Both the position numbers and the translations under genes were made by a program. This document shows positions 46,890 through 54,643 of a stretch of 64,000 nucleotides of DNA, one piece after another. Each line of letters starts with the position of its first letter. The first letter of the stretch is position 1. The stretch comes from Candidatus Caldarchaeales archaeon (GTDB lineage: Archaea; Thermoproteota; Nitrososphaeria_A; Caldarchaeales; Calditenuaceae): assembly GCA_039630085.1 (NCBI GenBank), contig JBCNVM010000005.1:14122-78121 (forward strand), read 5' to 3'. The notes beneath the pieces are model-generated. The model was not told the origin of the DNA. It ran no database searches and saw only the letters and a list, made by a program, of their open reading frames with translations.

Positions 46890-49022
46890 TCAGTCCACGA
46901 TCTCGTAGATGTAGACGTACGCGTAGGTGTTCGGGCTGTAGGGCGGACTGGAGGAGTAGACCAGCCTGAAGCCCTCGATCTGGGGCGGGGCATACGTGTA
47001 GTAGGTCTGTGCTCCGAGCCTGACGGGCTTGTAAGGTATCATCAGCCCGAGCGTCGTCTCACTCCAGAACTTCTCGGTCGCGGTGGTCGGAGATCCCTCT
47101 GGGCCGAGAAGGCTCGCCTCGTCGATCTTCGGATAGCCTATGTTTTCCGCTTCTTGATTCGCTATCTTCAACATCCAATACCATTTGCTCTCGTCTCCGT
47201 AAAACAAGAGCTGGCCTCCCTGCTGGCCTCCGACGAAGGGCGCGAAGGTCACGAAGATCAGGACGTGCGTCGCACCGAGCTCCTTGAAGATCCTCTTGCT
47301 CGCGTTGGGGGGCGAGAGGAACGCGTAAGCGATCTTCGCGATTCTGATGCTGTCGATGGTCGTGTTGTCGATGATGCTGGTCCTGTTGCCGAGCCTCGAG
47401 ATCCAGTTGCCGTAGTCCCACCAGGATGCCACGACCGCGCCCTGTGGCAGGTTGTTCCTCATCCACTCGAGGGCCCTCGGCCAGTCGTGGAGGGGTTGCT
47501 TGACGGGCAGGCTGCTGGCCAGCACGGTCGGCGGGACGTCGGCGTAGTCGATGCTGGAGTACTGGGAGAGCCCTCCGGCCCTAGCGGGGACGTAGTAAAG
47601 CGTGAGCGCGAGCAGGACCGCCAGAGGGACCGCGATCGCGACCCTGCTCTCAAACGGAGTCCTCCTCTTCGCCCTCGGGGCTGGAGCGGCTAGGGCCCTG
47701 AAGGTCGACTCGAGGACGTGGGAGACCGTCGTCCCTGCGAGCACGGCCACGACCGGAGAGGTCGGGAGTGCCAGCCTCACCATCGAGGAGGCGAAGTAGA
47801 ACGCTAGGACCGCGTATACCGTGAGGAAGACCGCCTCGTTGGTTCCCCTCTTAACCAGCAGGAAGAGCGCGAAGGGCGCGAGGAGGAGCGTCGGGCCGAA
47901 GTCGAGGAAGAGCGATCCCCAGGTCGCCAGCTGGTTCTCGGCCACCGATTGGACGATAGGGAGGGTTCCCCTCAGCTGCGGCAGGAGCACAGAGAAGAAC
48001 TTCAGGCCGGGAATGTCTAGGGCGCCGAGCGCGAGGGAGGCCAGCCCTAGGACCCCGATGGCGAGCACGATGCCCCTCGTCACGAGGAGGGACCTGACCT
48101 CGTCGAGGCGCTCCTTCGCCAACCACGCGGCCACCAGATAAGGGATGACGAGCCAGCCCGCCGCCATGCTGACCTCGGTTAGGTAGCCGACGCCGAGCTT
48201 GGGGACGTTGACCGCGATCGATGCGTAGGTCGCAAAGGCCGCGAGGTAAGCCACCAGGACTCTCCTGTCCATCCTGCCTAGAAACGCCAGCACCGCCGTG
48301 TAGAGAGGTATCAGCGCGATCACGAGCCTGTGCGCTCCCCAAGTGGCCGTGACGTATCCGACCAACAGCCCCGCCAAGAGCCCGAAGAGCAGTGAACCTC
48401 TCAGGGTCCTCTTCTCGTTGATGGCGATCAGGTAGAAGAGAAAGGCCGCGTGCATCAGAGGTATCGAGAGGGCCTCGTCGTCGAACCAGCCGTAGTGGGT
48501 CCTCGAGATGTGAGCCGCGCTGACCGCGAGGAGGAGCGCCGAGGCGAGGGCCGCGCCCCTACCGACGACGTACCTCGCGAAGAAGTAAACGACCACAACG
48601 GTTACCATCCCGTAGAAGACGGGAAGCGCCGAGGCTAGCGCGACGGGGTCAACCGTTGCGCCCATCGAGGAGAGGGTCAGGTAGAGGAAGGCCATCGTGA
48701 AGGCCACGCCGGGGTAGAAGGTCGTCCCCACGTTCAGGCCCGTTGGGTGCCACGAGAGCGTGTCGACCATCCCCCTGAACTCCCAGAACCCCGCCCAGCC
48801 CCTCTCGATGATCATCCTCGCGACCGTGTAGTGCCACCAGGGGTCGAACTCGCTCAGGACTGGGCCCCACTTGGCGGGGAGGGACCTCACCATGAATGCC
48901 GCCGAGATTGCCAGCAGCAATACCGCGGCCTCGAGGGGCGTCAGCCTCCCGCCGAGCCTCCTGTCGAGCCACCGCAGGACACCGGAGAGCCTTCCCAGCA
49001 GCCTGCGCGCTCCGCGCCGCAT
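46890..49022 (-). CDS. aglB: dolichyl-phosphooligosaccharide-protein glycosyltransferase AglB (STT3 homologue)
   Basis: 13 TM N-terminal domain and the WWDYG motif in the C-terminal domain. Confidence 0.9.
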   Translation of the reverse strand: MRRGARRLLGRLSGVLRWLDRRLGGRLTPLEAAVLLLAISAAFMVRSLPAKWGPVLSEFDPWWHYTVARMIIERGWAGFWEFRGMVDTLSWHPTGLNVGTTFYPGVAFTMAFLYLTLSSMGATVDPVALASALPVFYGMVTVVVVYFFARYVVGRGAALASALLLAVSAAHISRTHYGWFDDEALSIPLMHAAFLFYLIAINEKRTLRGSLLFGLLAGLLVGYVTATWGAHRLVIALIPLYTAVLAFLGRMDRRVLVAYLAAFATYASIAVNVPKLGVGYLTEVSMAAGWLVIPYLVAAWLAKERLDEVRSLLVTRGIVLAIGVLGLASLALGALDIPGLKFFSVLLPQLRGTLPIVQSVAENQLATWGSLFLDFGPTLLLAPFALFLLVKRGTNEAVFLTVYAVLAFYFASSMVRLALPTSPVVAVLAGTTVSHVLESTFRALAAPAPRAKRRTPFESRVAIAVPLAVLLALTLYYVPARAGGLSQYSSIDYADVPPTVLASSLPVKQPLHDWPRALEWMRNNLPQGAVVASWWDYGNWISRLGNRTSIIDNTTIDSIRIAKIAYAFLSPPNASKRIFKELGATHVLIFVTFAPFVGGQQGGQLLFYGDESKWYWMLKIANQEAENIGYPKIDEASLLGPEGSPTTATEKFWSETTLGLMIPYKPVRLGAQTYYTYAPPQIEGFRLVYSSSPPYSPNTYAYVYIYEIVD

Positions 49023-49420: not shown

Positions 49421-50350
49421 TCAGACCCATTTCCACCTGCCGTATACGAGGTAGAGTAGCGCGGCCCCGGTGTGCATCCTGTTCTCGGCCTGGTCGATCA
49501 TCACGGAGCTGGGGCCGTCGGCGACCTCGGCCTCGACCTCCTCGCCCCTCTTCACCGGCATGCAGTGCATGAACCTCGCTCCGGGCTTGGCACCAGCCAT
49601 GAGCTCCCTCGTGACCCTGTAGCGTGGTATGAAGGCCTTCAGCCTCCGCTCCCTCTCGGCCTCGAAGCCCATCGAGATGAAGACGTCGGTGTAGACGAAG
49701 TCCGCGCCCTTCACGGCCTCGGCTGGGTCGTCGGTGAACGTGAGCTCCGAGCCGGAAGCCCTGGCAGCCTCGAGGGCCCTTCTCCTCTCCTCCTCCGGCA
49801 CCCAGTAACCCTCAGGGGAGGCGATCGCGAAGTCGACGCCAGTCAGGGCGCAGGCCTGCATCAGGGAGGTGGCTACGTTGTTCCCGTCGCCGACGAAGGC
49901 CACCTTGACCCCCTTGAAGGTCCCCTTCAGCTCGAAGACCGTCATCAGGTCGGCGAGGGCCTGGCAGGGGTGATGCCTGTCGGAGAGGGCGTTGATCACC
50001 GGGACCCTCGAGCTCGCGGCCAGCTCCCTCAGAGTGGCGTGGCTGTAGACCCTGCAGACGAGCCCGTCGACGTACCTCGAGAGGACCCTGCCGACGTCGC
50101 TGACCGGCTCGCCCCTCGCGAGCTGCAGCTCCGCGGAGGAGATGTAGTCGAACCTCCCCCCCAGCCTGCTGATGGCCGACGTGAAAGAGACCCGCGTCCT
50201 CGTCGAGGGCTTCTCGAAGATCAGGCCGATCGTCCTCCCCTTGAGCCCAGCGCTCGGGTACCCCTCCGACTTGAAACGCACAGCGGTCCTGACCGCCTCG
50301 ACGAATTCATCCCTCGAGAGGTCCAGGACCTCGAGGAAGTGCCTCGTCAT
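49421..50350 (-). CDS. argF: ornithine carbamoyltransferase
   Basis: STRTR, HPCQALAD and HCMPxxRGEEV motifs. OTCase-type N-terminus (LKGRTIGLIFEKPSTRTRVSF). Confidence 0.85.
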   Translation of the reverse strand: MTRHFLEVLDLSRDEFVEAVRTAVRFKSEGYPSAGLKGRTIGLIFEKPSTRTRVSFTSAISRLGGRFDYISSAELQLARGEPVSDVGRVLSRYVDGLVCRVYSHATLRELAASSRVPVINALSDRHHPCQALADLMTVFELKGTFKGVKVAFVGDGNNVATSLMQACALTGVDFAIASPEGYWVPEEERRRALEAARASGSELTFTDDPAEAVKGADFVYTDVFISMGFEAERERRLKAFIPRYRVTRELMAGAKPGARFMHCMPVKRGEEVEAEVADGPSSVMIDQAENRMHTGAALLYLVYGRWKWV

Positions 50351-50466
50351 CTCGGCAACGGACTCCGACCGTGAAATAATAGCGTATCCGGCTCAGCGCG
50401 CACTTCCACCTTCATACGAGTCCCGCTCTCTCCGCTTAAATCGGATACAGGCACCGGCGCTCCGGG

Positions 50467-50655
50467 TTGGCGGTCCAGCTCAGGGCCAGGAGCGGGCTGA
50501 GGCCCCTTACCGTGAGGCTGCCGGAGGCGTACCTCGACGCGCTGGAGGAGCTGGTCGACTCGGGGGTGTACGCGAGCGTCGCCGAGGCCGTCCGCATGGC
50601 GATAAGGGACCTGATCTCGAGGGAGGGTTTCCTGATCAGGTCGGAGCGGAGATGA
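50467..50655 (+). CDS. ribbon-helix-helix (CopG/Arc-family) DNA-binding protein
   Basis: Beta-strand (LTVRLPEAYLD) followed by two helices in about 60 aa. TATA gcttaaatcgg upstream. Confidence 0.6.
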   Translation: MAVQLRARSGLRPLTVRLPEAYLDALEELVDSGVYASVAEAVRMAIRDLISREGFLIRSERR

Positions 50656-51074
50656 GCCGGAGCCTGATGGTCGAGGAGGTCGAGGACGCGCTGCTCGGGA
50701 TCGCGGAGAGGCTGAAGGGTGAGGGCCTGATCGCGGCCGTGGCGAGGGATCTCACGCCGCCCGTCTACCCGAGGGTCTACGTCCTCCTGAGGGAGGTGCA
50801 CCTCGCGAGAACCACCGTCGCCGGGAGCGGGCTCAACGTCGACCAGGAGTACGAGGTCGTCGTGGAGAGCTCAGGGCCCGACGCAGCGCTCCAGGCTTCA
50901 GAGGCCGTCAGGGCGGCGGTAAGGTTCGCGGAGCTCGTCCTTTCCGAGGGGCCGAGGGAGGTCGGCGGCCTCCCCCTCGAGCTATTCCCCTACGAGCTGA
51001 GGGTGGTCGATGTCCTCGAGTCGGGGAGGAGGTCGACGGTCGTCTCGGTGCGCGTGAGGGCCCGCGTTGGCTGA
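50652..51074 (+). CDS. hypothetical protein translationally coupled (ATGA) to the RHH gene
   Basis: 140-aa ORF starting at the ATG at 50652. No domain recognised. Its 3' end overlaps a minus-strand ORF. Confidence 0.45.
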   Translation: MSRSLMVEEVEDALLGIAERLKGEGLIAAVARDLTPPVYPRVYVLLREVHLARTTVAGSGLNVDQEYEVVVESSGPDAALQASEAVRAAVRFAELVLSEGPREVGGLPLELFPYELRVVDVLESGRRSTVVSVRVRARVG

Positions 51075-51519
51075 CCCCTTCCTCGGGCCTACCTCCCAGT
51101 AGCCTCATCAGCGCCAGAGAGAGCGCCGTCACGGCGACGCCCAAAGGAAGGAGGATCGGAGAGGCCGTCCTGAAGTCCCTCCTCGTGGCGACCAGCATCG
51201 CGACGCCGACGCCGTAGGCCGTGCCGAGCGCTGCGACCGCCCTCCTGAAGATGATGGACCTCTCGGTATAGGCGAGTCCTGCAGCGGCCGCGAGGGCCAT
51301 CGAGCCCGCTGCCAGAAGGGCCAGCGACTCCGCGGACCTCCCCCTCACTCTGATCTCGTACTCCTCGAAGTGGACCGGCAGGTCGCCGAAGAGAGGGACG
51401 TGGAGCTCCCTCACGACGGTCCTCCTGACGAGCTCCGACTCGGGCGAAGAGAGCATGAGCCCCCCTGCCAGCAGAACTAGGGCGGCGAACGCGAGCCCGA
51501 CAATCAGCGCGGCCCTCAT
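50908..51519 (-). CDS. membrane protein (4 TM) with an R/P-rich low-complexity tail; doubtful 3' extent
   Basis: Hydrophobic N-terminal 140 aa. The last roughly 55 codons run antisense to the 50652-51074 gene and look like shadow sequence. Confidence 0.35.
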   Translation of the reverse strand: MRAALIVGLAFAALVLLAGGLMLSSPESELVRRTVVRELHVPLFGDLPVHFEEYEIRVRGRSAESLALLAAGSMALAAAAGLAYTERSIIFRRAVAALGTAYGVGVAMLVATRRDFRTASPILLPLGVAVTALSLALMRLLGGRPEEGVSQRGPSRAPRRPSTSSPTRGHRPPSARRGIARGGGRRPPSAPRKGRAPRTLPPP

Positions 51520-51806
51520 CTCCCCGAGCCCCTCCGGGAAGCGACGAGGGCGCCCAGCAGGTCGTTCAGCAGCGTCACTGTCCCGCCTGTGAGGAGCATC
51601 TGCTCGAGGCGGAGGTCGTCGAGCTCCAGTCCCAAGTGCGCTGAAATCAGGCCGACCAGCGCTCCGAGGGCGACCGTCCTGAGGAACTTCCTCGGGGAGA
51701 ACTCCTCCCGCCTCCTGGACTTGAGGTAGCCCGCGCCGGCGAAGACCGCTCCGTAGAGCGCGCCCAGCAGCGCAGAGGAGAGGCCCAGCTGGACCTCATG
51801 CTCCAA
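51516..51806 (-). CDS. small membrane protein (2-3 TM; holin-like topology)
   Basis: 96 aa with ATGA overlap to the downstream membrane ORF. Confidence 0.4.
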   Translation of the reverse strand: MEHEVQLGLSSALLGALYGAVFAGAGYLKSRRREEFSPRKFLRTVALGALVGLISAHLGLELDDLRLEQMLLTGGTVTLLNDLLGALVASRRGSGR

Positions 51807-52002
51807 CGGCGTACCACCTCTTGGTCCTCGGAGAAAGCCTGACGGAGCTCCCGCAGCATGGGCACCTGAGCGAGCCCCTCCTGTCCTCGCAGCACCTCAG
51901 GGGGAGCGCGACGTCGCAGACCGCACACCACGCGTACCCGAGCCCGTACCTCACCCTCCTCGACGTGCCGTCGATCGAGACGCAGGCCGACCTGCACCTC
52001 AC
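51796..52002 (-). CDS. small Cys-rich zinc-ribbon protein
   Basis: 68 aa with the pattern CAVCD…CC…CPCCG. Confidence 0.35.
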   Translation of the reverse strand: MRCRSACVSIDGTSRRVRYGLGYAWCAVCDVALPLRCCEDRRGSLRCPCCGSSVRLSPRTKRWYAVGA

Positions 52003-52235
52003 CTTCCACCCGACCTCCTCTCAGCCCTCCTGACCATCTCGCTCAGCGAGAGGCCGCCGCCGAAGCTCCCGACGAGCGTCGCCTCTATCGCCCTGCCGGC
52101 CCAGAGGAGCGCCACGAAGGCCACGGCAAGGAAGATCGCCAAGGCCCCGAGCCAGTCCTCGACGCCGAAGCTGACCGTGACTCCTTTCTGGCTCCTCCTC
52201 ACCGTCAGCCTCGCCTCCCTCCTCATCTCACTCAC
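51999..52235 (-). CDS. small membrane protein (1 TM)
   Basis: 78 aa. Overlaps its neighbours by 4-8 nt, typical of a tight operon. Confidence 0.35.
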   Translation of the reverse strand: MSEMRREARLTVRRSQKGVTVSFGVEDWLGALAIFLAVAFVALLWAGRAIEATLVGSFGGGLSLSEMVRRAERRSGGR

Positions 52236-52554
52236 CCGTCAGGAGCACCGTGCCCCTCGACCGGACGTCCTCCGAGAGGGCCGCGAGCTCCTCCCTCACG
52301 GCTCTCAGCAGGGCCGCGGCCTCCTCCCTCCTCGTCGACCTCCACGCGAGAAAGAGGAGCGCGGCGATGGTGCTGGAGAGCTTCCTGATCCTCATCGGCG
52401 GGTCTGCGAGCGGGACCCGGTGACCGTGGGACTGGAGGGTCGCGTCGATCAGGGACTCAGCCTCTTCTAAGAACACCGCCAGCAGCTGATCGAGTGACGC
52501 GTCGTCCTCTTGAAGTCCGACCTTGACCCTCACGTCCCGGATCGAGCCGTACAT
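52228..52554 (-). CDS. phage gp6-like head-tail connector / DNA-packaging protein family candidate
   Basis: 108 aa. Resembles Phage_connect_1-type proteins (an N-terminal L..DD..D..L..A.E.I segment and a central hydrophobic helix LSSTIAALLFLAWRSTRREEAA). The assignment is from memory of the family, not a search. Confidence 0.4.
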   Translation of the reverse strand: MYGSIRDVRVKVGLQEDDASLDQLLAVFLEEAESLIDATLQSHGHRVPLADPPMRIRKLSSTIAALLFLAWRSTRREEAAALLRAVREELAALSEDVRSRGTVLLTGE

Positions 52555-52677
52555 CGAACTTCGGGAACTCAGGTAACGGATTAGCCCTCGCTATGTTGAA
52601 AGATTGTTTTCAAAACTCAACCTCACCAAAATTCAAAAAACAGCTAGCCAGTAAACCGGGGCTTATCTGAAGGGGCC
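52555..52677. promoter_or_regulatory. AT-rich divergent intergenic/promoter region (markedly lower GC than surroundings)
   Basis: tatgttgaaagattgttttcaaaactcaacctcaccaaaattcaaaaaacagc lies between a minus-strand small-ORF operon and a plus-strand operon. Confidence 0.5.
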
Positions 52678-53022
52678 GTGGCCAGCAGGAGGGTGAGGGA
52701 GCTCCTGAAGGGAGTGAGGGAGGGGGAGCTGGTTGTGGTGAAGTGGTGGGACGCGTGCACTTGGAGGGACGTCCCGAACTCGGTCAGGAACCCGGAGAAG
52801 GTCGACAGCCCCATCTACTCGATCGGTGCGTTCGGAGGACTGGTCAGGGGAGAGAGGATCGAGTACCTGCGGCTGGTGGTGGAGAGGAAGCCCGAGACGA
52901 GCGACATCACGTACATCCCCGTCCAGCTGGTCGAGAGCGTCGGGAGGGAGAGGTTCAGTGCACCGAAGAAGGGCGTGAGGAACTACCTCGACAACGTGAG
53001 GTACTACGGTGACGGGCGTTGA
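52678..53022 (+). CDS. hypothetical protein (first gene of the terminase operon)
   Basis: 114-aa ORF with no domain call. Confidence 0.4.
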   Translation: MASRRVRELLKGVREGELVVVKWWDACTWRDVPNSVRNPEKVDSPIYSIGAFGGLVRGERIEYLRLVVERKPETSDITYIPVQLVESVGRERFSAPKKGVRNYLDNVRYYGDGR

Positions 53023-53333
53023 GAGGCTCCCTGAGCCGGAGGGTCACGAGGGTCGAGAGGGGGCTCGCGAGGATCGCGAGGGCCGTTGAGAGGAGGTCGC
53101 AGGAGGGGCAGGCGCCGTCGGACTGGAGGCGGCTCGAGGAGGAGGTCTGGTCGCTGGTCCAGGAGGCCTGCTCGCTTTCACAGGCCGCGAAGTCCAAGGG
53201 CGACATCAGGACTTCCCAGGCCTGCGTTGGAATGGCACTGAGGGGGCTGGCGCTGCTGGGGAGGCTGAGGAGGGAACGGGAGCTGGAGGAGATCAGGGCC
53301 CTTGTCGAGCGGATGGAGGGCGGGTCGGGGTGA
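53019..53333 (+). CDS. small helical protein, candidate terminase small subunit / DNA-binding partner
   Basis: 104 aa, predicted alpha-helical and basic. ATGA-coupled immediately upstream of the large terminase. Confidence 0.35.
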   Translation: MRGSLSRRVTRVERGLARIARAVERRSQEGQAPSDWRRLEEEVWSLVQEACSLSQAAKSKGDIRTSQACVGMALRGLALLGRLRRERELEEIRALVERMEGGSG

Positions 53334-54643
53334 GTCCCGCGGTCCCGAGGGAGCTGAGGAGGCGGGTCGAGGCTCTGAGGAGATTGAGGGAGTCGGGGCG
53401 AGTCCGCGTCCCAGAGGACCCGCTCGAGTTCGCGGTCGGGTTCCTCTCTTGGAGGCCCTTCCCCTATCAGGCCGACCTCCTCACGGACGCGAGCCCGAGG
53501 ATCTGCGTCTGTGCCGCGAGGCAGGTGGGGAAGTCGACGACTGCGGCCGCGAAGGTCCTCCACCTCTGCCTGACCAAGCCGGGCTCGAGGGCGCTGGTGG
53601 TCGCGCCGACGTTGAGGCAGAGCGCGCTCTTCCTCGAGAGGGTCGAGGATCACCTGAGGTCCTCCAGGGCAGGGCCCTCGCTGGTCGCGGGACGGGACAG
53701 GACCTCGGTCAGGTTCGTCAACGGCAGCAGGGTCGTCGCGCTTCCCTCGGGGAGGTTCGGCCACACGATAAGGGGCTTCACCGCGGACCTCGTCGTTGTC
53801 GACGAAGCGGCCTTCGTCCCGGAGGAGGTGATAACGCAGGCCTTGATGCCTCAGGTCGCGACGACCGGCGGGAGCTTCCTGATGATCAGCACGCCCTGGG
53901 ACAAGAACCACGTCTTCTACAGGTGCTTCACCAGCGGCGACTGGAGCGTGAAGAGGTGGCCCGTGAGCGTCTGCCCCCTGATCCCCAGCGGGTTCATCGA
54001 GGAGCAGAGGAGGTTGATCGGCGACGAGGCGTTCAGGAGGGAGTACCTCGCGGAGTTCGTCGAGGACGCCGCGTCTTTCTTCTCGGCGGACCTGATCAGG
54101 AGGTGCGTGGACGACTACGAGGCCCGGCCCAGCGGCGACACTGAGCTGACCGCGGGCTTCGACTGGGGAGGCAGGTCGGACCCAAACGCGCTGGTCGTCG
54201 TCGAGCGGAGGGCCGAAGTCCTCAGGGTTGTCCACGTCGAGTCCTGGATGAGCGACAGCTACACCTACTCGGCCTCGAGGGTCGCGAGGCTCCAGAGGGA
54301 GATGGGGTTCAGGGTCGTGCTGGAGGAGATCGGCGCGGGTCTCCTGATCAGGGAGCAGCTGGAGTCCCACGGAGTCGAGGTGATCGGAGTGGGTCCAGCG
54401 GATATCGAGAGGACGATGCTGCTGCTGAGGGTCCTGATGGAGTCGGGGAGGCTGAGGACGTACCTCGACAACAGGCTGATCGACTCGCTGCGGGCTGTCA
54501 AGCACGAGAGGACGAAGGGAGGAAGGGTGAGGTTCTACCACGAGCCGGGGACCCACGACGACCTCGCCAGGGCGCTCGCGCTGGCCGCGTGGGGAGCGAC
54601 AGTCTCGGGCTCCGGAGCGACCGCCTCGCTCTTGGAGGCATGA
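53330..54643 (+). CDS. terL: phage terminase large subunit-like protein (ATPase + RNase-H-like nuclease)
   Basis: Terminase ATPase motifs: Q-motif FPYQADLL, Walker A CAARQVGKST, VVAPTLRQS, Walker B LVVVDEAAFV, C-motif LMISTPWD. Nuclease-domain acidic residues: GFDWGGRSD, EEIGAG, HDDLARALALA. Confidence 0.75.
   Translation: MSPAVPRELRRRVEALRRLRESGRVRVPEDPLEFAVGFLSWRPFPYQADLLTDASPRICVCAARQVGKSTTAAAKVLHLCLTKPGSRALVVAPTLRQSALFLERVEDHLRSSRAGPSLVAGRDRTSVRFVNGSRVVALPSGRFGHTIRGFTADLVVVDEAAFVPEEVITQALMPQVATTGGSFLMISTPWDKNHVFYRCFTSGDWSVKRWPVSVCPLIPSGFIEEQRRLIGDEAFRREYLAEFVEDAASFFSADLIRRCVDDYEARPSGDTELTAGFDWGGRSDPNALVVVERRAEVLRVVHVESWMSDSYTYSASRVARLQREMGFRVVLEEIGAGLLIREQLESHGVEVIGVGPADIERTMLLLRVLMESGRLRTYLDNRLIDSLRAVKHERTKGGRVRFYHEPGTHDDLARALALAAWGATVSGSGATASLLEA

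What the first reader, a model, noticed from the sequence alone, without database searches (positions are those of the whole stretch)
53330..54643. Complete-looking large terminase (ATPase + nuclease) that appears intact
All diagnostic TerL motifs are present and in order: Q-motif, Walker A with the RQ-GKS arrangement, Walker B hhhhDE, the ATPase coupling S-T-P motif, then an RNase-H-like nuclease with three conserved acidic positions (GFDWGG-D, EEIG, HDD). An intact packaging motor in a locus lacking capsid genes suggests either recent decay or active use, for example satellite packaging, DNA-translocating defence, or gene-transfer-agent-like function.
Basis: partly seen in the sequence, partly recalled or inferred. 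Interest (0 to 1): 0.7.

Follow-up and report, generated by a model that had tools for sequence, protein, structure and literature searches.

The report
Orphan terminase kept by hot-spring archaea
The gene for a virus DNA-packaging motor is real and intact, and it sits in a small virus-derived cassette that a group of hot-spring archaea has inherited with its chromosome and kept under selection, although no capsid genes lie nearby.

Summary
The ORF at 53330-54643 (+) is a genuine large terminase (TerL). It passes the Pfam thresholds for Terminase_6N and Terminase_6C, matches PHROG_2 at 4e-44, and is most similar among solved structures to the TerL of Thermus phages P74-26 and G20c. All ATPase and nuclease catalytic residues are invariant across 36 homologues. 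It is not a decaying relic. It is the third gene of a translationally coupled operon: a 114-aa protein, a 104-aa protein, TerL, and an ABC-ATPase/GNAT fusion. That operon lies in a roughly 5.8-kb cassette that also encodes a Mu gp36-like head-tail adaptor, a tail-terminator-like protein, three small membrane proteins, a zinc ribbon and two RHH regulators. The cassette sits beside argF in seven Calditenuaceae (Caldarchaeales) genomes. Its synonymous divergence equals that of the housekeeping neighbours, and TerL has dN/dS 0.11. There is no integrase, att site or tRNA. Profile searches found no portal, capsid or tail-tube gene anywhere in the 64 kb. The ABC/GNAT partner is also linked to terminase genes in Bathyarchaeia proviruses and in bacterial phages (nickie, SSU5-like). 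My best reading is a domesticated packaging-plus-neck module that serves particles encoded elsewhere (GTA-like). That last step is inferred, not shown.

The parts
50467..50655 (+). RHH (ribbon-helix-helix) DNA-binding protein, 62 aa; likely regulator of the cassette
   Evidence: The orthologue in L001 carries a Pfam RHH_1 hit. NCBIfam gives CdrS 1.5e-7 and ParD-like 5e-5, both below their cutoffs. dN/dS is 0.08 against L010.
50652..51074 (+). 140-aa tail-terminator / neck-like protein (g141p)
   Evidence: The AF2 model has pLDDT 67.8 and pTM 0.63. Almost all top Foldseek PDB hits are phage neck or tail-terminator proteins: NF5 neck 8e-5, diffocin collar, SaPI1 neck, T5 p142, RcGTA 6TBA and lambda gpU. 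In L024/L026 the homologue lies two genes from a Phage_tube_2 tail-tube gene, with a 176-aa membrane-protein gene between them. dN/dS is 0.29.
50908..51519 (-). 203-aa membrane protein with an R/P/S-rich tail; last gene of the minus-strand operon; converges on g141p and overlaps it by about 167 nt
   Evidence: The sequence shows hydrophobic helices. Orthologues occur in all seven genomes, with dN/dS 0.46. An analogous 176-aa membrane protein holds the same position in L024.
51516..51806 (-). 96-aa membrane protein
   Evidence: Sequence. It is conserved with dN/dS 0.24.
51796..52002 (-). 68-aa Cys-rich zinc-ribbon protein
   Evidence: CxxC and CPCC motifs are visible. It is conserved in seven genomes, with dN/dS 0.22.
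51999..52235 (-). 78-aa single-pass membrane protein
   Evidence: Sequence. dN/dS is 0.17. A similar 78-aa TM protein occurs in the L024 cassette.
52228..52554 (-). 108-aa head-tail adaptor-like protein (Mu gp36 / HK97 gp6 type); first gene of the minus-strand operon
   Evidence: All 9 family members hit Pfam Phage_Mu_Gp36 (best 2.3e-5), and 2 also hit Phage_connect_1. PHROG_195 'head-tail adaptor' scores 0.019. The weak top PDB hit is Mu gene product J. dN/dS is 0.18. The score of the window protein itself (22.1 bits) is just below the Pfam cutoff of 24.7.
52555..52677 (.). AT-rich divergent intergenic region between the two operons; presumed promoters
   Evidence: Read directly from the sequence. 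The promoter function is inferred.
52678..53022 (+). 114-aa beta-rich protein of unknown role (g114p); first gene of the packaging operon
   Evidence: A family HMM finds homologues upstream of TerL in Bathyarchaeia (pro)viruses and in Terraquivivens-type loci. There are no Pfam, PHROG or PDB matches. dN/dS is 0.09.
53019..53333 (+). 104-aa all-helical protein; small-terminase candidate by position only
   Evidence: Its start and stop overlap the neighbouring genes by 4 nt (TTGA and GTGA). dN/dS is 0.15. No family match was found.
53330..54643 (+). Large terminase TerL: N-terminal ASCE ATPase (about res 37-260) plus C-terminal RNase H-like nuclease (about res 270-420)
   Evidence: dN/dS is 0.11.
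54640..56109 (+). ABC-type ATPase fused to a GNAT acetyltransferase plus a C-terminal domain (489 aa from the ATG at 54640); conserved partner of TerL
   Evidence: Pfam ABC_tran and Acetyltransf_1 pass their cutoffs; PHROG_293, PHROG_11143 and PHROG_886 also match. An ATGA overlaps the TerL stop. Walker A, LSxGQ, the Walker B DE pair, the H-loop and GNAT RxxGxG are invariant in 8 homologues. It lies next to TerL in Bathyarchaeia and IMG/VR loci and next to the terminase genes in phages nickie and PhiR41_1.
56069..56275 (-). 68-aa RHH-like protein, very highly conserved; marks the right edge of the conserved block
   Evidence: It is 100% identical in protein to L010 at dS 0.28. The RHH assignment comes from the sequence pattern only.

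Best explanation
The ORF encodes a catalytically intact large terminase of the Terminase_6 (T4 gp17 / Mu gp28 / Thermus phage P74-26) type. Its N-terminal ATPase translocates double-stranded DNA, and its C-terminal RNase H-like nuclease cuts that DNA. It is not part of an active or recently decayed provirus. It is the third gene of a four-gene, translationally coupled packaging operon: a 114-aa protein, a 104-aa small-terminase candidate, TerL, and an ABC-ATPase/GNAT enzyme. The operon sits in a roughly 5.8-kb virus-derived cassette (50467-56275). The cassette also holds a divergent operon with a Mu gp36-like head-tail adaptor, three small membrane proteins and a zinc ribbon, plus a tail-terminator-like protein and two RHH regulators. 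This cassette is fixed beside argF in the Calditenuis-related archaea (Caldarchaeales), has diverged together with the chromosome, and is under purifying selection. All of the above is shown. What follows is inferred. Adaptor and tail-terminator proteins only make sense on a portal-capped head and a tail. The cassette is therefore most likely the packaging-and-neck arm of a host-retained (GTA-like, domesticated) head-tail particle system. Its capsid, portal and tail genes would lie elsewhere in the genome. TerL would then cut DNA and pump it into those heads, assisted by the upstream small proteins and the ABC/GNAT enzyme.
For: TerL identity and integrity are supported by several results. Both Pfam domains score above their gathering thresholds, and PHROG_2 matches at 4e-44. 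PDB TerL hits are 4ZNI 6.6e-14, gp17 5.7e-8 and 5TGE/5M1F about 2e-7, with residue-by-residue correspondence of Walker A, the arginine finger, Walker B, STP and the three nuclease acidic residues. R64, G67, K68, R148, G149, D158, E159, P189, D278, D410 and D411 are invariant in 36 homologues at 28-92% identity.

Fixation and selection are supported by synteny and divergence. The same gene order sits next to the OTCase gene in L001-L005 and L010-L015, which are seven species-level Calditenuaceae genomes. Against L010, dS is 0.24-0.58 for cassette genes and 0.34-0.42 for the flanking STT3, OTC, ArgC and SMC genes. dN/dS is 0.11 for TerL, against 0.12 for OTC and 0.13 for ArgC; the other cassette genes range from 0.00 to 0.46. 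GC content does not deviate from the flanks. No tRNA, att-like repeat or integrase is present.

Operon structure is read from the sequence: 4-nt start/stop overlaps TTGA, GTGA and ATGA.

Viral ancestry and virion-specific partners are supported as follows. The g141p model matches phage neck and tail-terminator proteins, including that of RcGTA. All 9 members of the g108m family hit Mu gp36. Homologues of g114p, g108m and g141p accompany TerL and a tail-tube gene in L024/L026. ABC/GNAT accompanies TerL next to tail genes, or near a portal and a protease-MCP fusion, in Bathyarchaeia and IMG/VR loci. In bacterial phages the split ABC and GNAT genes lie just upstream of TerS-like, TerL, portal and MCP genes.

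There is also a hint that head-tail genes are dispersed in this lineage. In Ca. Calditenuis fumarioli, TMP-like, tail-fibre and Mu gpP-like genes are reported on a different contig, interspersed with host genes. In Pelearchaeum, TerL sits between hisC and a TMP-like gene (PMC10547907 Table S6).
Against: No major capsid protein, portal or tail-tube gene was found anywhere in the 64-kb window with profiles built from related loci, nor in the 10-kb flanks of the orthologous loci. I could not search whole Calditenuaceae genomes, so the existence of a head module elsewhere is unproven. The adaptor assignment rests on sub-threshold to marginal HMM scores, and the single-sequence structure model was unusable. 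The tail-terminator call rests on a medium-confidence model with TM-scores of 0.4-0.58. The roles of g114p, g104p and ABC/GNAT in packaging are inferred from gene order alone. Purifying selection shows that the genes are used, not what they are used for.
Confidence: 0.5

Rival explanations
1. Exaptation for a capsid-independent cellular job. TerL and the ABC/GNAT enzyme, perhaps with the membrane proteins, would act directly on cellular or invading DNA as an ATP-driven translocase/nuclease. The job could be defence, repair, or DNA export or import, with no virion involved.
For: No capsid, portal or tube gene lies in 64 kb. The cassette is chromosomally fixed and under selection. Three conserved small membrane proteins are co-transcribed with the adaptor-like gene. 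Orphan TerL genes recur in this part of the archaeal tree, for example L006 and NitKor-E1 in PMC6563490.
Against: Two retained proteins, the adaptor-like g108m and the tail-terminator-like g141p, have no known role outside a virion neck, yet both are under purifying selection. The TerL-ABC/GNAT linkage is a feature of bona fide viral packaging modules. PADLOC gives only weak generic P-loop hits, mad3 and mad8.
Confidence: 0.2
2. Helper-dependent element or packaging interference. The cassette has no capsid of its own. When a related tailed virus infects, its terminase and neck proteins would engage that virus's procapsids. This would either spread host DNA or sabotage viral packaging, as PICI-like satellites do, but from a fixed chromosomal site.
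For: The gene content (terminase, candidate TerS, adaptor and terminator, but no capsid) is the kind of set that could redirect another virus's heads. Related tailed viruses with the same TerL-ABC/GNAT module exist in other Thermoproteota. RHH regulators flank the cassette.
Against: There is no integrase, att site, replication gene or excision signature. The chromosomal position is identical and dS equals that of the flanks in seven genomes, so it is not mobile. No virus of Calditenuaceae with matching genes was recovered: the best IMG/VR TerL hits are only 35-36% identical.
Confidence: 0.12
3. An inert relic of an old provirus whose remaining ORFs happen still to be open.
For: Most of a head-tail genome is missing, and the cassette is only about 5.8 kb.
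Against: All 12 ORFs are intact in seven genomes separated by dS of about 1 or more. dN/dS is 0.00-0.46, and the TerL value equals that of the housekeeping neighbours. Catalytic residues are invariant. Translational coupling is preserved.
Confidence: 0.05
4. Not a terminase but another P-loop enzyme, for example a TmcA/NAT10-type helicase working with the neighbouring GNAT as an ATP-dependent acetyltransferase.
For: Pfam NAT10_TcmA_helicase scores 29.2 bits, above its cutoff of 22.7, on residues 60-172. NCBIfam TmcA scores 1.9e-6. A GNAT domain is encoded by the next gene.
Against: The terminase models score far higher and cover both domains: PHROG_2 152 bits over residues 37-423, and Terminase_6N plus Terminase_6C. 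The NCBIfam TmcA score of 26 bits falls far short of its 700-bit cutoff. The C-terminal half aligns to TerL nuclease structures with the acidic triad. The nearest phage relatives are annotated and solved TerLs.
Confidence: 0.03

Closest known systems
TerL of Thermus phages P74-26 / P23-45 / G20c (PDB 4ZNI, 5TGE, 5M1F), within the Pfam Terminase_6 (T4 gp17, Mu gp28) family
   Same: The two-domain architecture is the same. Walker A has the P-loop arginine (RQxGKS). The arginine finger (xxRGxTxD), Walker B DE, STP coupling motif and nuclease acidic triad are all present. Identity is 26-34% over about 87% of the length to Thermus and Meiothermus phage TerLs and 29.5% to haloarchaeal virus HGTV-1.
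   Different: The gene is encoded in a cellular chromosome without an adjacent portal or capsid gene. The second nuclease acidic residue is Glu (E332) instead of Asp in the Calditenuaceae clade. T4 gp17 also has Glu here, but that is from my own knowledge and was not tested. There is a lineage-specific N-terminal extension of about 36 residues.
Gene transfer agents (RcGTA type)
   Same: Both consist of head-tail virus genes that include a TerL, are vertically inherited and under purifying selection, and lack integration and replication genes. g141p structurally resembles the RcGTA neck protein 6TBA_4A, among others.
   Different: RcGTA keeps TerL together with portal, protease, capsid and tail genes in one cluster of about 15 kb. 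Here only packaging and neck genes are present, and no capsid gene was found in 64 kb. No particle production is known. No GTA has been described in Thermoproteota or Nitrososphaerota, to my knowledge.
NitKor-E1 of Nitrosopumilus koreensis (Krupovic et al. 2019, PMC6563490): a TerS + TerL-only integrated element
   Same: It is an archaeal (Nitrososphaerota) chromosome carrying terminase genes without other recognisable Caudoviricetes genes. The authors call it 'enigmatic'.
   Different: NitKor-E1 has an integrase, a toxin-antitoxin pair and a restriction endonuclease, is confined to one genome, and is interpreted as a relic. The present cassette has no mobility genes, is syntenic across seven genomes, is under selection, and keeps neck proteins and the ABC/GNAT partner.
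Packaging modules of Pseudomonas phage nickie and SSU5-like phage-plasmids (e.g. Escherichia phage PhiR41_1), and Bathyarchaeia proviruses / IMG/VR contigs L018, L090, L092
   Same: The ABC ATPase (41% identity, 6e-52) and the GNAT plus C-terminal part (24% identity, about 1e-18) are encoded next to the terminase genes. In Bathyarchaeia they form the same fused protein of about 490 aa, at 37-42% identity, and a g114p-like gene is also present.
   Different: Those are complete or near-complete viruses with portal, capsid and/or tail genes. In the bacterial phages the ABC and GNAT parts are separate genes, preceded by ParB-like and methyltransferase genes.

Membership tests
Large terminase subunit (TerL; Pfam Terminase_6N + Terminase_6C) | Profile scores above the curated thresholds for both domains | tested here: met
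   Terminase_6N scores 57.3 bits against a cutoff of 22, and Terminase_6C 33.7 against 22.6. PHROG_2 scores 152.5 bits over residues 37-423.
Large terminase subunit (TerL; Pfam Terminase_6N + Terminase_6C) | ASCE ATPase with Walker A, Walker B (hhhhDE), trans-acting arginine finger and coupling motif | tested here: met
   R64, G67, K68, R148, G149, D158, E159 and P189 are invariant in 36 homologues. They align to the corresponding motifs of P74-26 TerL.
Large terminase subunit (TerL; Pfam Terminase_6N + Terminase_6C) | C-terminal RNase H-like nuclease with three metal-binding acidic residues | tested here: met
   D278, E332 and D410/D411 align with the GADFG, VVAD and HDD motifs of the P74-26/G20c nuclease domains. 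D278, D410 and D411 are invariant. Position 332 is E in this clade and D elsewhere.
Large terminase subunit (TerL; Pfam Terminase_6N + Terminase_6C) | Three-dimensional fold superposable on solved TerL structures | not tested
The similarity to solved TerLs is by sequence only.
Large terminase subunit (TerL; Pfam Terminase_6N + Terminase_6C) | Works on a portal-capped procapsid (portal and major capsid genes in the same element) | tested here: not met
   No portal, HK97 MCP or tail-tube match was found in the 64-kb window or in the flanks of the orthologous loci. Whole genomes could not be searched.
Large terminase subunit (TerL; Pfam Terminase_6N + Terminase_6C) | ATP-driven DNA packaging and DNA cleavage activity | not testable with these tools
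   This needs biochemistry.
Gene transfer agent (domesticated head-tail particle system) | Vertical inheritance with the host and purifying selection; no integration or replication genes | tested here: met
   The cassette is syntenic beside argF in seven genomes. Its dS equals that of the flanks. dN/dS is 0.00-0.46. There is no integrase, att site or tRNA.
Gene transfer agent (domesticated head-tail particle system) | Complete set of head (MCP, portal, protease) and tail genes in the genome | tested here: inconclusive
   These genes are absent from the window. Literature hints at dispersed TMP, tail-fibre and gpP-like genes on another contig of C. fumarioli. No genome-wide search was possible.
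Gene transfer agent (domesticated head-tail particle system) | Particles that package host DNA | not testable with these tools
   This needs particle purification and sequencing.
Phage satellite / cryptic integrated element (PICI-, P4- or NitKor-E1-like) | Integrase with att sites, often at a tRNA; patchy, variable location | tested here: not met
   Searches find none. The location is the same in all seven genomes.
Intact Caudoviricetes provirus | Contiguous head, tail, lysis and replication modules | tested here: not met
   The cassette is about 5.8 kb and bounded by argF and, in different genera, different housekeeping genes. No ORF in it scores as MCP or portal.
Known anti-phage defence systems (PADLOC-DB) | Significant match of the component proteins to a defence-system model set | tested here: not met
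   Only weak P-loop-level hits were found: mad8 1e-4 for TerL, and mad3 3e-11 on the ABC signature region.
TmcA/NAT10 RNA cytidine acetyltransferase | Helicase domain fused to GNAT and tRNA-binding domains; NCBIfam equivalog score | tested here: not met
   NCBIfam TmcA scores 26 bits against a cutoff of 700. Only the P-loop core (residues 60-172) matches PF05127. The C-terminal half is a TerL nuclease.

The most novel reading that the evidence does not exclude
The cassette is the packaging-and-neck arm of a dispersed, host-controlled gene-transfer-agent-like system in thermophilic Caldarchaeales. To my knowledge this would be the first such system in Thermoproteota/Nitrososphaerota. In the same reading, the ABC-ATPase/GNAT protein is a previously unrecognised enzymatic component of the terminase machinery, shared by a lineage of archaeal and bacterial tailed viruses. 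About 780 sequence clusters of this protein family exist, and I found no description of a function for it.
Probability: 0.25. Interest if true: 0.8.

Novelty: new variant of a known kind. Interest (0 to 1): 0.55.

Why it matters
Terminases are treated as hallmarks of active or decaying tailed viruses. Published Caldarchaeales/Aigarchaeota genome papers read gp28-like genes as 'Mu-like prophages' (PMC6053391, PMC10547907). Here a terminase, with its operon partners and two neck proteins, behaves like a host gene set. It holds a fixed position, has co-diverged with the chromosome, and is as constrained as argF. If particles are made, horizontal gene transfer by GTA-like agents would extend to thermophilic TACK archaea. 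If they are not made, this is a case of a packaging motor exapted for a cellular function. Either way the locus gives a concrete and testable candidate. It also flags the ABC-ATPase/GNAT enzyme as a conserved but unstudied neighbour of terminase genes in viruses of both bacteria and archaea.

Tried and rejected
1. I concatenated four small cassette proteins into one query for the search for homologous proteins. Nothing scored, probably because low-complexity word matches swamped the candidates. This wasted one capped search.

The word-indexed search found only two close homologues of g141p. That model therefore rests on a two-row alignment, the window protein plus one homologue (P0096).

3. 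The single-sequence AF2 model of g108m had pLDDT 54, and its fold search was meaningless.

5. Profile searches of PDB sequences with the g141p and g114p families found nothing. The g108m family gave only a non-significant top hit to Mu gpJ.

6. PHROGs run on 16 members of the g114p family found nothing.

7. PADLOC gave no defence-system assignment.

8. Rfam found nothing relevant in 49-59 kb.

9. The search for flanking att repeats and tRNA genes found none.

10. Portal, MCP and tail-tube profile HMMs run on all six frames of the window found nothing.

11. Literature searches for COG2401 (a COG number recalled from memory) and for an ABC-ATPase/acetyltransferase link with terminase found no description.

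12. I considered and rejected the 300-aa ORF 50172-51074 and the 121-aa ORF 50436-50801 as genes. The orthologous loci and dN/dS (0.81 for the 121-aa frame) indicate that the real genes there are the RHH62 and g141p ORFs.
Full report
**Observation.** The ORF at 53330..54643 (+) exists exactly as described and encodes 437 aa. In this 65% GC window long ORFs arise by chance; an antisense ORF of 533 aa overlaps it. The plus frame has the genome's coding signature, with GC at codon positions 1/2/3 of 0.60/0.50/0.91. The antisense frame does not (0.83/0.53/0.64). The terminase assignment is strong. Pfam Terminase_6N scores 57.3 bits and Terminase_6C 33.7 bits, both above their gathering thresholds. 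PHROG_2 'terminase large subunit' scores 4e-44 over residues 37-423. Among solved structures the best sequence matches are the TerL ATPase domain of Thermus phage P74-26 (4ZNI, 6.6e-14), T4 gp17 (5.7e-8), and the TerL nuclease domains of P74-26 and G20c (5TGE/5M1F, about 2e-7). Those alignments pair Walker A (RQVGKS with RQSGKS), the arginine finger (TIRGFTAD with NLRGATLD), Walker B (VVVDEAA with VILDEAA) and ISTP. They also pair the nuclease acidic residues D278 (GFDWG/GADFG), E332 (VVLEE/VVADT) and D410-D411 (HDD/HDD). In an alignment of 36 homologues at 28-92% identity these residues are invariant. The one exception is position 332, which is Glu in the closest clade and Asp elsewhere. A weaker hit to the NAT10/TmcA helicase domain covers only the P-loop core and fails the NCBIfam test (26 bits against a cutoff of 700).

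**Organism and distribution.** The closest homologues come from Calditenuaceae (order Caldarchaeales, formerly Aigarchaeota). They are 91% identical in a 'Nitrososphaerota archaeon' MAG, 72-74% in two Calditenuaceae MAGs, and 62-63% in Calditenuis species including Ca. C. fumarioli. One cassette protein is 100% identical to an NCBI protein from a 'Candidatus Caldarchaeales archaeon' MAG. More distant relatives (30-46%) occur in Bathyarchaeia, other Nitrososphaeria, IMG/VR contigs and many Armatimonadota. Among cultured viruses the nearest are Meiothermus and Thermus phages and the haloarchaeal virus HGTV-1.

**Context in the window.** On the left lie AglB/STT3 (46890-49022) and ornithine carbamoyltransferase (49421-50350). 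On the right lie N-acetyl-gamma-glutamyl-phosphate reductase-like ArgC (58535-59674) and SMC (59745-63197). Between them, the block conserved across genomes is 50467-56275.

It has three parts:
- A short plus-strand pair: an RHH protein and a 140-aa protein, g141p.
- A minus-strand operon of five genes with overlapping start and stop codons. In order they are the 108-aa g108m, a 78-aa membrane protein, a 68-aa zinc ribbon, a 96-aa membrane protein and a 203-aa membrane protein.
- A plus-strand operon, across an AT-rich 123-bp divergent region, of g114p, g104p, TerL and an ABC-ATPase/GNAT fusion. These genes are joined by TTGA, GTGA and ATGA overlaps.

A very highly conserved 68-aa RHH-like gene converges on the end of the plus-strand operon.

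**Not recent decay.** The whole cassette is present in the same order, next to the OTCase gene, in seven species-level genomes (loci L001-L005 and L010-L015). The right flank differs between genera. Against the closest genome (L010), synonymous divergence of cassette genes (0.24-0.58) matches that of the flanking housekeeping genes (0.34-0.42). This indicates co-divergence with the chromosome. dN/dS is 0.11 for TerL, compared with OTC 0.12, ArgC 0.13 and SMC 0.22. The other cassette genes give:
- 0.09 for g114p and 0.15 for g104p
- 0.29 for ABC/GNAT
- 0.18 for g108m and 0.29 for g141p
- 0.17-0.46 for the membrane proteins
- 0.22 for the zinc ribbon
- 0.08 and 0.00 for the two RHH proteins

All values come and use Nei-Gojobori estimates, which are saturated in the deeper comparisons. 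GC content does not differ from the surroundings. There is no tRNA gene nearby, no flanking direct repeat and no integrase. The cassette is not family-wide, however. In Pelearchaeum maunauluense the reported TerL lies between hisC and a TMP-like gene (PMC10547907 Table S6).

**What the partners are.**
- *g108m.* All nine family members hit Pfam Phage_Mu_Gp36 (best 2.3e-5), and two also hit the gp6-like head-tail connector family. The top, non-significant PDB sequence hit is Mu gene product J. It is therefore probably a head-tail adaptor. The evidence is consistent but marginal in score.
- *g141p.* AlphaFold gave a medium-confidence model (pLDDT 67.8, pTM 0.63) with an alpha-beta-beta-alpha-beta-beta topology. 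Its Foldseek hits in the PDB are almost exclusively phage neck and tail-terminator proteins: NF5 neck 8e-5, diffocin collar, SaPI1 neck, T5 p142, RcGTA and lambda gpU.
- *g114p.* It has no known family. A family HMM shows it is the same small gene that precedes the terminase region in Bathyarchaeia (pro)viruses and Terraquivivens-type loci.
- *g104p.* It is a small helical protein and is a small-terminase candidate by position only.
- *ABC/GNAT.* It has an intact ABC ATPase (Walker A, LSDGQ, Walker B DE, H-loop) and an intact GNAT (RGIGLG). All these motifs are invariant in eight homologues.

**Viral ancestry of the module.** In Bathyarchaeia genomes and IMG/VR contigs the fused ABC/GNAT (37-42% identity) lies within one or two genes of TerL, in either order. 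It sits next to tail genes (PHROG_290 minor tail 4e-23, PHROG_400). In L022 it lies within 6 kb of a portal and a protease-MCP fusion. In Pseudomonas phage nickie and an SSU5-like phage-plasmid, the ABC part (41% identity, 6e-52) and the GNAT part (24%, about 1e-18) are separate genes. They lie immediately upstream of a DNA-binding (TerS-like) gene, TerL, portal and capsid genes. The GNAT-plus-C-terminal half has 776 representatives at E <= 1e-10 in a 50%-clustered library, in fused and stand-alone forms. I found no published function for it. In Terraquivivens-type loci (L024/L026), homologues of g141p, g108m, g114p and the small membrane proteins accompany TerL and a Phage_tube_2 tail-tube gene, again followed by host genes.

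**What is missing.** Profile HMMs for two kinds of portal, HK97-type capsid protein and tail tube, built from the related loci, find nothing in any frame of the 64-kb window. The 10-kb flanks of the orthologous loci are housekeeping genes. I could not search whole genomes. The only genome-level hint comes from the literature. In Ca. C. fumarioli a 'prophage region' on a different contig holds TMP-like, tail-fibre and Mu gpP-like genes interspersed with MCM, GINS and CopA. The TerL studied here was not reported for that genome.

**Interpretation.** Four things are shown:
- TerL is intact.
- It belongs to a coupled operon with a conserved ABC/GNAT partner.
- The cassette is of head-tail virus origin.
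- The cassette is chromosomally fixed, vertically inherited and under purifying selection.

The rest is inferred. Adaptor- and terminator-like proteins are retained under selection, and they have no known role away from a virion neck. The most economical model is therefore a domesticated, GTA-like particle system whose packaging-and-neck arm is this cassette and whose head and tail genes lie elsewhere. I give this about 0.5. The rivals are:
- a capsid-independent exaptation of the motor, about 0.2
- a fixed helper-dependent or packaging-interference role, about 0.12
- an inert relic, about 0.05, contradicted by the selection data
- a non-terminase enzyme, about 0.03, contradicted by the profiles

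**Comparison with known systems.** As a protein, this is a new member of the Terminase_6 family. As a locus, it resembles GTAs in inheritance and selection but lacks their structural cluster. It resembles the 'enigmatic' TerS+TerL-only element NitKor-E1 (PMC6563490), but it is not mobile, is conserved across genera, and retains neck genes. It differs from satellites by lacking every mobility feature. I rate it a new variant of a known kind and of moderate interest.

Noticed in passing
L009 3901-6251 and about 28 further loci (L030-L088): In Armatimonadota (Fimbriimonadaceae, Chthonomonas and relatives) a TerL 28-36% identical to this one is always directly followed by a Mu-type portal (PHROG_113 8e-71 in L009). 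The flanks are not syntenic between genomes. In L009 the pair sits between hisD and Vsr/peptidase S66 with no capsid gene in view. This may be a second, bacterial case of retained terminase-plus-portal genes, or simply prophage edges.
   Followed up: partly
window 56069-56275 (-): A 68-aa RHH-like protein (MPKHVLVTLTDEQYRCLSYLKGKMG...) is far more conserved than its neighbours. It is 100% identical to L010 at dS 0.28 and 85-90% identical to Calditenuis. It overlaps the 3' end of the ABC/GNAT gene by 41 nt on the opposite strand.
   Followed up: partly
window 56619-58489 (+): A 294-aa protein without any family match is followed by a beta-CASP metallo-beta-lactamase protein. The latter resembles the ligase-associated DNA-damage-response exonuclease (NCBIfam 2e-41, below its cutoff). 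The pair occurs only in the high-GC subclade and is not part of the conserved cassette.
   Followed up: no
L024 1985-7575 and L026 5777-11302: Terraquivivens-type Caldarchaeales carry a different mini-cassette. It holds a Phage_tube_2 tail tube, a 176-aa membrane protein, a g141p-like gene, a g108m-like gene, a g114p-like gene, a 78-aa TM protein, a 212-aa helical protein and TerL. Host genes follow directly, there is no ABC/GNAT, and no capsid or portal was recognised.
   Followed up: partly
L022 7531-18947: In a Bathyarchaeia contig the ABC/GNAT-TerL module is followed by NurA and HerA genes, a tRNA-guanine-transglycosylase-like gene, a portal and a protease-MCP fusion. Upstream lie DHDPS-Fae fusion genes. 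Virus and host-like genes are interleaved.
   Followed up: partly
L006 9688-11293: On a 168-kb contig, a TerL 42% identical to the window TerL is preceded only by a 108-aa protein and flanked by MOSC, tRNA_SAD, MFS and acylphosphatase genes. This is another orphan terminase.
   Followed up: no
window 50908-51074: The convergent genes g141p (+) and the 203-aa membrane protein (-) overlap by about 167 nt. The overlapped part of the membrane protein is an R/P/S-rich, poorly conserved tail.
   Followed up: no
window 52955-54556 (-): A 533-aa antisense ORF spans most of TerL. Its codon-position GC profile (0.83/0.53/0.64) marks it as a high-GC artefact, not a gene.
   Followed up: yes
Literature: PMC6053391, PMC10547907: Reports of 'Mu-like prophages' in Aigarchaeota/Caldarchaeales cite homology to Mu proteins: gp28-like terminases and one gpP-like tail protein in PMC10547907; PMC6053391 gives no basis in its text. 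In the listed regions these genes are often single virus-like genes among host genes. The Ca. C. fumarioli TerL described here (contig NODE_2) is absent from that paper's prophage table.
   Followed up: partly
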